Position numbers: made by a program. DNA of 64,000 nt from Escherichia coli (GTDB lineage Bacteria; Pseudomonadota; Gammaproteobacteria; Enterobacterales; Enterobacteriaceae): the NCBI RefSeq assembly GCF_024298765.1, contig NZ_CP101211.1; one strand, 5' to 3'. Below are positions 42,001 through 45,000 of the stretch, in pieces; within the stretch, counting starts at the first letter, position 1; every line of letters starts with the position of its first letter.

Positions 42001-45000
42001 TCCGCTACGTCGCAGCTCAGGACATAGCTTGCCACATAGCTGCTCTCACCGTGGTAATGCGTCACTTTACACAGAGCATACTGGATACCGGCTTTGTGAG
42101 CCTCATTCATGAGACGAGAAAACTGACAGCCATCCTGGTAATAGTGGGTATCCTTTGTGACCAGAATAGTCATACCCCCAAATTCATCTGTCCGGCTTTT
42201 ACTGCATGTAAATGCAGCAGTAATTGTTACCATTTCCGGGAGGTCGAATACCGACAGCACGGCAGTTGTGAGGCAAATTGCATGGTCAAGATCAATAGTC
42301 TCTCCATGAAAAACTGACAGCCCACTGCTGTTAACTTCTGTTGCGAACGACAGTTCATAATTACAGTCTGGGCAGGATGGTTGCCCAAAGCTCGGCTCTG
42401 AAGGGTCATACTCAGGGTGGTTCTCAATAATACTGAGAATCAGCTTCTCAGTCAGAGAACAATCTGCCAGTGGCTTATCAAGCAAACGCTCACCTTCTGC
42501 AATTTCTGCTTCGGTAACGAATGTGATTGCTTCTTGTGCCATTTTAGCCTGCTCCTGAGTGCAGGGAATAATAAACGACGCCAGAGTATAATTATCTGCC
42601 ACAGTTGACTCCTTGATTATTTAATTAATGTATTTGATGAGAAGATCATAACAAACACACTACTACCAACTAATAACCTGAAGTCGTTTTTTTAGAAAAA
42701 ATATTAAGAAGAATATGAACACCACCTCATCTTAAATTAATATTGTTCAGGATTAATATTCATTTTTGCAAATAAAAACCGCCAGACGGCGGCTTTTATA
42801 AAGAGGGAAATATCATTGGAAGCTGAAATTACTTCACGGCAGGCCGACAAATTACGCGACTGCTGTGAGCTGAAGCGAAACTTGTAGAGGAAACTATAAT
42901 CACCTTTTCTAAGTCGTCGGCACTGTCGGCAATATGATGCCGAAAAGCCTCCTCTGCATCACCAGGGGAATCGGCTTCGACCGGGTAGGCCTGATCATCA
43001 TCATCAAACATAATGCGCCCGGAAATGAGATAAAGTCGGTTCAAATCTGGCGTCGCTGCGCTCGTGCTTCGTTCGTTCAGATTCATTTTTTCTCCGTCTG
43101 TTGCTCGTAAAAAGAATGACGCCGGTTTAAAAGGCGTCGCCAGGGTTCAGGCTAAAACGCAGGGTTGCCATCGAGGAAGCTCATTGGCTGGCCAATAGCG
43201 GATGCCACCCTGAGAATTTCACCTGGTGTGGCATAGCGCAGCATTTCTGAGCGTCCAAATTTCTGATACTCATCTACTGACATCTTTCTCCACTCGGGGT
43301 GAGGATCTTTTCCGCACAGTGACCAGTTGCTTTCAGAGGAATCACGACGGAGAACGTACACATCAAGCGAGGCTGTAAGCCCGCTTCCATATCCCCGCTG
43401 CGCTACAATACGAACCTGAGAACCATCGTCGCGTTGCAACGTCTGGGTTAATTTCGTGATAGGATCCTGAGAATGCATGCCATTTACCTCGTTTTTAAAA
43501 GAATTACCGTAAGTAAATGATACCGAATCGAGAATTCTGGCTAATAGGTCAGAAGAAAAAATATTGCATATTTTTGAAGTGTAGGATAATGATTAGAATA
43601 AAATGGCCTGAATAAATCGTTAGCTTTAACTCTGCTTATTTCAGAAAAACTCTGAATTAGTAGTGATGGAAAACGACGCGGTGAAAAGTAACTTTTACAC
43701 CGCAATTCAGAAAAAAGTTTCAGTTAGTCACATTACGAATAACCCGGCTTACTTTCGCATGTGCGTTCCCCTGCATGTTAAAGTAAAGCCCTCCGGGCAG
43801 ACTCGTCGCCCACTTAACGCCTCGCTCAGCCATACGCTTCGGTGTTTCCAGCCAACCACGAGGAATATTGCCCGGAACGTTACCGATAACCCGTCAAATG
43901 CATGCTGCTACCCGGATGCCGCCGGGAATATCGCATTTGGATTCAACAATATGCATGACCTCAGATAAAGCACCATGCCGCTGGACATGATCGCCAATGT
44001 GCAACTCGATAGGAGAAGCCATTTCTGAATCTGACTTCATATCTGTCCACCTTTAATTTAGAAACCGTCTAAATTACCAAATTAGTTAATCCAACAACAT
44101 CTGTATCACAACCATCAATTTGTTTTTGTTGGGTCTATATCGTAGAAACAAGTGAATAATGAATACACTCGTTAATACAGACAACCGGAAATGAATGACT
44201 ACCTGATTATCTCAGCGGTATATGCTAAGCCGTTAATATTGCCATTCTCTGGTGGAACCACTGCTAAATGAATAAACCGTTTGTCGCTTCAAACCACTTT
44301 ATCAAAACCGTTAACTTGCATTAAGTCCGATACAGTTCGGCGAGCTCATCCAGCATGGGGTTACTCTTATATCCCGGTGCGGCCGTAAAAAGGTTTCGGG
44401 AAATCGCCAGCCACTCCATGATTTTGTCCGTCGCCAGCCAACGTCTGCCAAGTCGCTCGGCTGCGATGGGGACTTTATGCAAGCCAGCGAAGGGATCTAC
44501 AACAAGATCTCCCGGCTCTGTCAAAAACTCAATCAGAAACGCTGCAAGCCTGGTAGGAGACGTTGCACCGTGCAGCGGAAAACCGAGCTCGCGGGCAATG
44601 GAATGGCAAAATCTCGTATCAGCGCAGCTATTGCCGTAAAACAAAGTATTCTTGGGGATCGTTCCTTCTGTTTTATTTCCAAAGGAACCGCTTTTAAGCT
44701 GGTACGCCCCATCACCATAAAAGGTCGTGCGATTTTCACCGCCTGCTGCCTGCAATTTTAGATGCTGGTCTGAATGCGGTTGTAGTACACGTAAGTTGTT
44801 TGAACGAACCTTACTCGCATCATTGGTAAACCACAGCACAGGCTCATACGATGAGCAGAGCTGCACCCGTTGCTTACATGCCCAGTGCGTTGGCGATGGG
44901 GGCTTACTGCGATTCACCCACTGAAGCCTGTCCATGAGCTCAAGCCCCAGCTTGTCACATAATGCCAGTGTCAGACGCTCCAGATACAGAGAACGTGAAG

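What the first reader, a model, noticed from the sequence alone, without database searches (positions are those of the whole stretch)
43720..44040. 106-codon reading frame with a single in-frame TGA
Coding-like sequence continues on both sides of the TGA at plus 43894-43896, so this is either a recent nonsense mutation or, less likely, a recoding site. It is missed by the ORF track because both halves are under 60 codons.
Basis: seen in the sequence. Interest (0 to 1): 0.33.

Follow-up and report, generated by a model that had tools for sequence, protein, structure and literature searches.

The report
Nonsense-mutated small IncHI2 plasmid gene
This is an ordinary broken gene: a small plasmid-backbone gene of unknown function, intact in the reference plasmid R478, acquired a single-base premature stop codon that is now fixed in the IncHI2 plasmid lineage common in E. 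coli and Salmonella.

Summary
The frame is real, but it lies on the minus strand (44040 down to 43720). The "TGA" is the reverse complement of + strand tca at 43894-43896. The window is IncHI2 plasmid backbone.

The sister IncHI2 lineage, including the prototype R478, has an intact 106-aa CDS (WP_000834113.1) at the same position, with TCA (Ser) at codon 49. More distant plasmids, typed IncHI1B by MOB-suite, have TCG (Ser). The TGA is therefore a derived single C>G nonsense mutation. In PLSDB, 588 plasmids carry it (mostly Escherichia and Salmonella) and 393 carry the intact haplotype (mostly Enterobacter).

Ser49 lies in the family's most conserved motif and inside a beta-strand of a confidently modelled single SH3-like barrel (pLDDT 91.6). 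The 48-aa product would therefore lack about half the fold.

Recoding is not supported. Homologs have Ser or Ala at this codon, not Cys. There is no SECIS-like hairpin and no Rfam hit, and the stop occurs in only one near-clonal allele. All polarisable amino-acid changes fall on the window's branch (omega 0.48 against 0.08 for the family), which fits relaxed constraint.

Verdict: a lineage-fixed nonsense pseudogene, which PGAP annotates as a 48-aa hypothetical protein. Low interest.

The parts
43720..44040 (-). Whole disrupted gene: 106 codon positions (105 sense codons plus the internal TGA) and the terminal TGA at 43720-43722. It is the ortholog of the R478 backbone ORF WP_000834113.1.
   Evidence: Translation. 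It is 95.6% identical in DNA to the intact 321-nt CDS of pMY504-1, ECO8855 p1 and R478 at the syntenic position.
43894..43896 (-). Premature stop: TGA at codon 49, derived from TCA (Ser) by a C>G transversion. The next base is C (a UGA-C context).
   Evidence: DNA alignments A1 and A2 and polarisation with the outgroup. A 40-nt probe centred on it finds 588 plasmids.
43897..44040 (-). Upstream half, codons 1-48. Together with the TGA, this is the CDS that PGAP annotates as hypothetical protein WP_001426334.1.
   Evidence: Annotation of pTB-nb4, which is 100% identical to the window here; ORF list.
43723..43893 (-). Downstream half, codons 50-106: a remnant that is not normally translated. It has no in-frame ATG, GTG or TTG before Met70 (ATG at 43831-43833).
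   Evidence: It aligns to the conserved C-terminal half of the family (IPRxW..TP...RG..WA..LP.GLYWNVQGNAHARV). The 37-aa ORF 43720..43833 is listed.
44047..44053 (-). Shine-Dalgarno-like AAGGTGG, 6 nt upstream of the ATG. It is identical in the intact and TGA alleles.
   Evidence: Read directly from the sequence. Its function is inferred, not tested.
44321..45571 (-). Context: the upstream co-directional orphan type II DNA methyltransferase. It neighbours this gene in IncHI2 and in the plasmids typed IncHI1B.
   Evidence: Annotations; PADLOC MTase_II 1.2e-46.

Best explanation
This is a unitary pseudogene made by one nonsense mutation. The ancestral gene is a small IncHI2 backbone gene encoding a 106-aa single-domain SH3-like beta-barrel protein of unknown function. 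It lies in a long one-directional array of small accessory genes, just downstream of an orphan DNA methyltransferase. In the lineage the window belongs to, codon 49 changed from TCA (Ser) to TGA. Ribosomes still start at the unchanged RBS and ATG but terminate after 48 residues. That fragment lacks the C-terminal end of the strand at residues 42-51, both helices and the last two strands, so it should not fold as the native domain (inferred from the model). The downstream 57 codons have no start codon of their own before Met70. They are translated only by background UGA readthrough, a few per cent in E. coli reporters, which would place Trp at a nearly invariant Ser. The allele then spread with its successful plasmid lineage, so the gene is evidently dispensable in those hosts.
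For: (1) There is an intact syntenic ortholog with TCA at codon 49 in pMY504-1, ECO8855 p1 and R478. (2) The outgroup has TCG (Ser), and the position is Ser in 13 of 14 diverse homologs, inside the motif GGIRVAACISR. (3) The allele is not a sequencing error: 588 independent plasmid records carry the TGA and 393 carry the intact haplotype, together accounting for all 981 records. (4) The AlphaFold2 model has pLDDT 91.6 and pTM 0.82 and shows one compact domain with strands on both sides of codon 49, which lies in strand 42-51. (5) Constraint looks relaxed. Every polarisable amino-acid change lies on the window's branch (T5S, V8A, F26S, E35K, S49*, D54N, T56P; I89M at the amino-acid level). Omega is 0.48, the highest of nine genes in the array (0-0.35), against 0.08 for intact versus outgroup. 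P(>=8 nonsynonymous of 13 | omega=0.078) = 0.0013, and the counts are compatible with omega = 1. (6) One TGA-lineage plasmid adds G84W, at a family-invariant Gly downstream of the stop.
Against: Within the TGA lineage there is almost no sequence diversity, so decay after the stop cannot be shown directly. The downstream half alone gives omega 0.31 (4N:4S), which does not by itself indicate neutrality. Fisher's test of the target against pooled neighbours is not significant (p = 0.09-0.14). No deletions or frameshifts have accumulated. The RBS and start are intact, and UGA-C is reputed to be a weak terminator, so some full-length product may still be made. No expression data were available.
Confidence: 0.9

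Rival explanations
1. The gene is attenuated, not dead. The 48-aa N-terminal fragment, or the few per cent of full-length S49W protein made by near-cognate Trp-tRNA readthrough of the UGA-C stop, still provides some function, and the stop acts as a down-tuning mutation.
For: The RBS and ATG are unchanged. PGAP calls the 48-aa ORF a CDS. UGA readthrough in E. coli K-12 reporters is about 2% at 37 C and 4% at 25 C (PMC10570021). From my own knowledge of Poole, Brown and Tate, EMBO J 1995 (the reference is listed in PMC9841425; the paper could not be read), UGA-C is the weakest termination tetranucleotide. No further disrupting lesions have accumulated in 588 plasmids.
Against: The upstream half shows 4 nonsynonymous changes to 1 synonymous (omega about 1.1), including changes at the conserved positions T5 and V8. 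The model is one interlocked domain, so a 48-aa fragment is unlikely to fold. Trp would replace a nearly invariant small residue in a strand. The lack of further lesions is equally explained by the lineage's very low diversity.
Confidence: 0.08
2. The TGA is a programmed recoding site, either selenocysteine insertion or programmed readthrough.
For: The hosts (E. coli, Salmonella) have the Sec machinery (general knowledge). Reading-frame conservation continues after the TGA. The T56P substitution happens to strengthen a local UUCCGG/CUGGAA pairing downstream.
Against: Homologs have Ser (one has Ala) at this codon, never Cys or Sec. The 70 nt from the TGA fold no better than shuffles (z = -0.66; 42 of 200 shuffles fold at least as well). 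The TGA and TCA alleles have similar predicted energies (-19.5 against -17.3 kcal/mol). There is no Rfam match at E<=1. The TGA exists in only one near-clonal allele and is absent from the sister lineage, R478, the outgroup and all distant homologs.
Confidence: 0.01
3. The TGA is a sequencing or assembly error in this record.
For: None found.
Against: The identical 40-nt context including the TGA occurs in 586 PLSDB plasmids, and in 2 more with one mismatch elsewhere, from many laboratories and platforms. It also occurs in 243 E. coli RefSeq records at >=99% identity.
Confidence: 0

Closest known systems
R478 (IncHI2 prototype, NC_005211) backbone ORF HXG62_RS01280 / WP_000834113.1, hypothetical protein, 106 aa
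   Same: It is the syntenic ortholog, between the same orphan methyltransferase and the same 108-aa ORF. It is 95.6% identical in DNA and matches at 97 of 106 residue positions, the mismatches including the stop.
   Different: R478 has TCA (Ser) at codon 49 and an uninterrupted frame. The window has TGA and eight further amino-acid differences, those that can be polarised being derived on its own branch.
WP_001426334.1, the 48-aa 'hypothetical protein' that PGAP annotates in TGA-lineage IncHI2 plasmids
   Same: It is exactly the upstream half of this frame (window 43894-44040, minus strand).
   Different: The annotation treats it as a stand-alone small gene. The comparisons here show it is the N-terminal fragment of a truncated 106-aa gene.
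SH3-like beta-barrel domains: EF-P / eIF5A domain I, KOW and Tudor-like folds
   Different: Sequence identity is only 12-16%. There is no Pfam, NCBIfam, PADLOC or PHROG match for the IncHI2 protein. Two helices are inserted between strands. The fold is generic, so no function can be transferred.
Bacterial selenoprotein genes (for example fdhF) with an in-frame UGA plus a SECIS element
   Same: An in-frame UGA within a conserved reading frame, in a host that can insert Sec.
   Different: There is no Cys or Sec at the homologous position, no SECIS-like hairpin, and the TGA is not conserved outside one allele.

Membership tests
Nonsense-mutation pseudogene (unitary, lineage-specific) | An intact ortholog at the syntenic position in close relatives | tested here: met
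   A 321-nt CDS, WP_000834113.1, lies between the same neighbours in pMY504-1, ECO8855 p1 and R478.
Nonsense-mutation pseudogene (unitary, lineage-specific) | The stop codon is the derived state | tested here: met
   The sister lineage has TCA, the outgroup has TCG, and 13 of 14 family members have Ser.
Nonsense-mutation pseudogene (unitary, lineage-specific) | The truncation removes conserved, structurally required sequence | tested here: met
   The stop falls in strand 42-51 of a single-domain model (pLDDT 91.6). The downstream half holds 16 of the 29 invariant columns (R50 to A95).
Nonsense-mutation pseudogene (unitary, lineage-specific) | Relaxed selective constraint on the disrupted lineage | tested here: inconclusive
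   Omega is 0.48 against a family value of 0.08 (binomial P = 0.0013), and all polarisable nonsynonymous changes lie on the window's branch. However, only 13 substitutions are available, the contrast with neighbouring genes is not significant (p = 0.09-0.14), and within-lineage diversity is close to zero.
Nonsense-mutation pseudogene (unitary, lineage-specific) | Loss of the full-length protein product | not testable with these tools
   This needs proteomics, ribosome profiling or tagged expression.
Bacterial selenoprotein gene (UGA = Sec) | The UGA aligns with Cys or Sec in homologs | tested here: not met
   The position is Ser in all but one of the aligned homologs, and Ala in that one.
Bacterial selenoprotein gene (UGA = Sec) | A SECIS stem-loop immediately 3' of the UGA | tested here: not met
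   The MFE is -19.5 kcal/mol with z = -0.66 against shuffles. The TCA allele folds similarly. There is no Rfam hit at E<=1. No dedicated bacterial SECIS predictor was available.
Programmed stop-codon readthrough | The stop codon is conserved across diverged homologs, with purifying selection downstream | tested here: not met
   The stop is present in only one near-clonal allele. It is absent from R478, the outgroup and all distant homologs.
EF-P / eIF5A domain I (KOW-like SH3 barrel) | Sequence-profile membership (Pfam or NCBIfam) | tested here: not met

The most novel reading that the evidence does not exclude
The TGA is a selected attenuator rather than a simple knockout. The weak UGA-C stop would let a few per cent of ribosomes read through, and more at low temperature, where K-12 reporters show roughly twice the readthrough and where IncHI plasmids are known to conjugate best (the latter from my own knowledge, not tested here). 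The lineage common in E. coli and Salmonella would then make a trace, temperature-dependent amount of a full-length S49W protein, and the reduced dosage would have helped this lineage succeed in those hosts.
Probability: 0.03. Interest if true: 0.45.

Novelty: new member of a known kind. Interest (0 to 1): 0.08.

Why it matters
It matters little biologically. It shows that one small IncHI2 backbone gene is dispensable in the plasmid lineage that dominates in E. coli and Salmonella.

There are two practical uses. First, the 48-aa "hypothetical protein" WP_001426334.1, annotated in hundreds of plasmids, is better labelled as a truncated fragment or pseudogene of the R478-type 106-aa gene. Second, the single C/G difference at codon 49 is a clean marker separating the two major IncHI2 backbone lineages: 588 against 393 PLSDB plasmids, with different host spectra.

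The intact protein belongs to a very rare, uncharacterised family found on plasmids and phages (22 representatives among 1.84 billion proteins). That may interest people cataloguing accessory genes of mobile elements.

Tried and rejected
- **+ strand reading.** Translating 43720-44040 on the + strand gives a different frame with stops elsewhere. The + strand 101-aa ORF 43663-43968 is just the antisense shadow of the gene.
- **Selenocysteine or SECIS.** Rejected.
- **Sequencing error.** Rejected.
- **Independent translation of the downstream half.** There is no in-frame ATG, GTG or TTG until Met70, and no evident Shine-Dalgarno sequence before it (read from the sequence).
- **Functional assignment by sequence.** Pfam, NCBIfam, PADLOC and PHROGs gave nothing for this protein; one distant family member hits the unannotated phrog_31703.
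- **Functional assignment by structure.** Only generic SH3-barrel matches and uncharacterised phage proteins were found. The AFDB50 library was unavailable.
- **Guilt by association.** The methyltransferase neighbour is conserved only among the IncHI-type plasmids. Distant homologs sit in arrays of small unknown genes in a phage and other elements, with no consistent partner.
- **Promoter and terminator scan.** No promoter-like site was found, and one terminator-like site inside the gene is at chance level.
- **Literature.** No paper was found that discusses this ORF. Poole et al. 1995 could not be opened.
- **Recurrent loss.** Two further disrupted copies exist, a pPSV 1-nt insertion and the P0004 frameshift. 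Each is a single record and could be a sequencing error, so I do not rely on them.

Full report
**Observation**

The finding's coordinates are right, but the frame is on the minus strand. Translating window:43720-44040 on the minus strand gives 48 codons, a TGA, 57 more codons and a terminal TGA. The in-frame TGA is the reverse complement of + strand 'tca' at 43894-43896. The + strand translation of the same interval is an unrelated frame. The ORF list shows the two pieces as 43894..44040 (48 aa) and 43720..43833 (37 aa from the first ATG).

A Shine-Dalgarno-like AAGGTGG sits 6 nt upstream of the ATG.

The pattern is not statistically unusual. The window contains 35 frames of at least 106 codons with one internal stop and both halves of 40-89 codons, against 54.5 +/- 8.1 in first-order Markov random sequences. 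Only comparative evidence can show that it is a gene.

**What the window is**

The 841 bases around the finding match 253 E. coli RefSeq records, 243 of them at >=99% identity. Nearly all are plasmids of 200-290 kb. PLSDB typing of such a plasmid is IncHI2A, MOBH, MPF_F.

In pTB-nb4, which is 100% identical here, the locus lies about 17 kb from repHI2. It sits in a long one-directional array of small hypothetical genes that also holds an orphan site-specific DNA methyltransferase, a DndC-like PAPS-reductase-family protein and an HNH endonuclease. PGAP annotates only the upstream half, as the 48-aa hypothetical protein WP_001426334.1.

**The stop is a derived single-base nonsense mutation**

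Ten E. coli records match at 90-95% identity. Two of the full-length ones, pMY504-1 and ECO8855 p1 (92% identical), carry an uninterrupted 321-nt CDS at the same position, WP_000834113.1 of 106 aa. The IncHI2 prototype R478 has the same intact protein at 241334-241654.

The DNA alignment shows TCA (Ser) where the window has TGA, a single C>G change. More distant plasmids, typed IncHI1B by MOB-suite (pRHBSTW-00464_2, 74% protein identity), have TCG (Ser). Ser is therefore ancestral and TGA derived.

In an alignment of 14 diverse homologs reaching down to 55% identity, position 49 is Ser in 13 and Ala in one. It lies in the best-conserved motif, GGIRVAACISR. The downstream half is as well conserved as the upstream half, carrying 16 of the 29 invariant columns.

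**Distribution**

The full gene finds 981 PLSDB plasmids in two discrete classes: 588 at >=99% identity and 392 at 95.6%, plus one at 90-95%.

I then used a 40-nt megablast probe centred on the stop. Every 28-nt seed word of that probe must span the G of the TGA. It finds 588 plasmids: Escherichia 313, Salmonella 236, Klebsiella 23. The corresponding probe from R478 finds 393: Enterobacter 228, Salmonella 50, Klebsiella 32, Citrobacter 31, Escherichia 28.

The TGA is therefore not an error. It is fixed in the larger of the two IncHI2 backbone lineages, and no revertants were seen. The one gene-level variant I inspected (pYLMB15a) keeps the TGA and adds G84W at a family-invariant glycine downstream of it.

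**Structure and consequence of the truncation**

AlphaFold2 on the 14-sequence alignment gives a confident model (mean pLDDT 91.6, pTM 0.82). It is a single compact domain with strands at 3-8, 18-21, 24-35 and 42-51, helices at 67-72 and 76-80, and strands at 86-91 and 97-103. Codon 49 lies inside the strand at 42-51.

A 48-residue product would lose the end of that strand, both helices and the last two strands. From this I infer that it cannot adopt the native fold.

The family is tiny, with 22 representatives at E<=1e-3 among 1.84 billion cluster representatives and 18 hits in the 5.8-billion set. Distant members lie in arrays of small unknown genes. One is clearly in a phage, with terminase, portal, RdgC and dUTPase genes. 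Another sits next to a DndB gene in Xenorhabdus.

The function of the intact protein remains unknown. An accessory or establishment role on mobile elements is a guess based on context only.

**Selective constraint**

Nei-Gojobori estimates give omega of about 0.08 for the intact allele against the outgroup, although dS is saturated there. Between the two IncHI2 lineages the target has 8 nonsynonymous and 5 synonymous differences, excluding the stop. That is omega 0.48, the highest of nine genes in the array; the others range from 0 to 0.35.

With the outgroup as reference, every polarisable amino-acid change is on the window's branch: T5S, V8A, F26S, E35K, S49*, D54N and T56P, plus I89M at the amino-acid level. 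None is on the intact branch.

Eight or more nonsynonymous changes out of 13 is unlikely under the family's constraint (P = 0.0013) and compatible with neutrality. The contrast with pooled neighbours is not significant (Fisher p = 0.09-0.14). The downstream half alone gives omega 0.31 from 4N:4S. This line of evidence is supportive but under-powered.

**Recoding tests**

The 70 nt starting just before the TGA fold to -19.5 kcal/mol. That is no better than shuffled sequence (mean -17.5, z = -0.66; 42 of 200 shuffles fold at least as well). The TCA allele folds with similar energy, -17.3 kcal/mol. Rfam gives no hit at E<=1 on either strand of 43000-44800.

Homologs show Ser or Ala, not Cys, at the position, and the TGA is confined to one near-clonal allele. 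Selenocysteine insertion and programmed readthrough are therefore not supported.

Unprogrammed readthrough is still expected at a low level. E. coli K-12 reporters show about 2% UGA readthrough at 37 C and about 4% at 25 C through Trp-tRNA competing with RF2 (PMC10570021). UGA followed by C is, to my knowledge, the weakest termination tetranucleotide in E. coli (Poole, Brown and Tate 1995, cited in PMC9841425; the paper itself could not be read). A trace of full-length S49W protein is thus possible, but nothing suggests it is selected.

**Conclusion**

The finding is a real gene remnant: a lineage-fixed nonsense allele of a small, rare, uncharacterised IncHI2 backbone gene that is intact in R478.

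The result has two practical uses: an annotation correction (WP_001426334.1 is a truncated fragment) and a convenient lineage marker. Interest is low.

Noticed in passing
window 38753-41137 (minus strand): A 794-aa PAPS-reductase-family protein with a DndC-like N-terminal region (TIGR03183 DndC E = 6e-34, below the curated cut-off; PADLOC DndC E = 4e-38; also weak BrxP and MTase_II model hits) and a long C-terminal extension. No dndA/B/D/E partners are annotated in the surrounding array of small plasmid-backbone genes. It may be a stand-alone DNA-modification or anti-restriction enzyme.
   Followed up: partly
window 44321-45571 (minus strand): An orphan type II DNA methyltransferase (PADLOC MTase_II E = 1.2e-46) with no adjacent restriction enzyme annotated. 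It is the conserved upstream neighbour of the disrupted gene in IncHI2 and in the plasmids typed IncHI1B.
   Followed up: partly
window 43152-43478 (minus strand) and the intergenic DNA at 43479-43719 and 44041-44320: The 108-aa ORF just downstream has dN = 0 between the two IncHI2 lineages. The 841-nt region is only 92% identical overall and differs in length (841 against 855/856 nt), while the genes in it are 95.6-98.8% identical, so the roughly 240-280-nt intergenic spacers must be more diverged and contain indels. The spacers are unusually long for such a compact gene array.
   Followed up: no
L005 (pPSV, LR881935) 3001-3318; protein P0004; L011 (pYLMB15a) 301-621: Other lesions in the same gene. 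pPSV has a 1-nt insertion that frameshifts the C-terminus. P0004 is an R478-type allele frameshifted after codon 74. pYLMB15a adds G84W downstream of the TGA. Each is a single record, so sequencing error cannot be excluded.
   Followed up: partly
window 43663-43968 (+ strand): A 101-aa GTG-start ORF lies antisense to the disrupted gene. It appears to be a shadow ORF of the minus-strand gene rather than a gene.
   Followed up: no
L004 3386-4287 (pRHBSTW-00464_2): In the outgroup plasmids the ortholog is followed directly by an Xre-antitoxin / RES-toxin pair. That pair is absent at this position in IncHI2.
   Followed up: no
L007 4657-6306 (Xenorhabdus bovienii contig): A distant homolog (66% identity) lies two genes downstream of a DndB-family gene, within a one-directional array of small ORFs that also contains a PIN-domain gene. 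Together with the DndC-like gene near the IncHI2 copy, this hints at a loose link to Dnd-related genes. The link was not tested.
   Followed up: no
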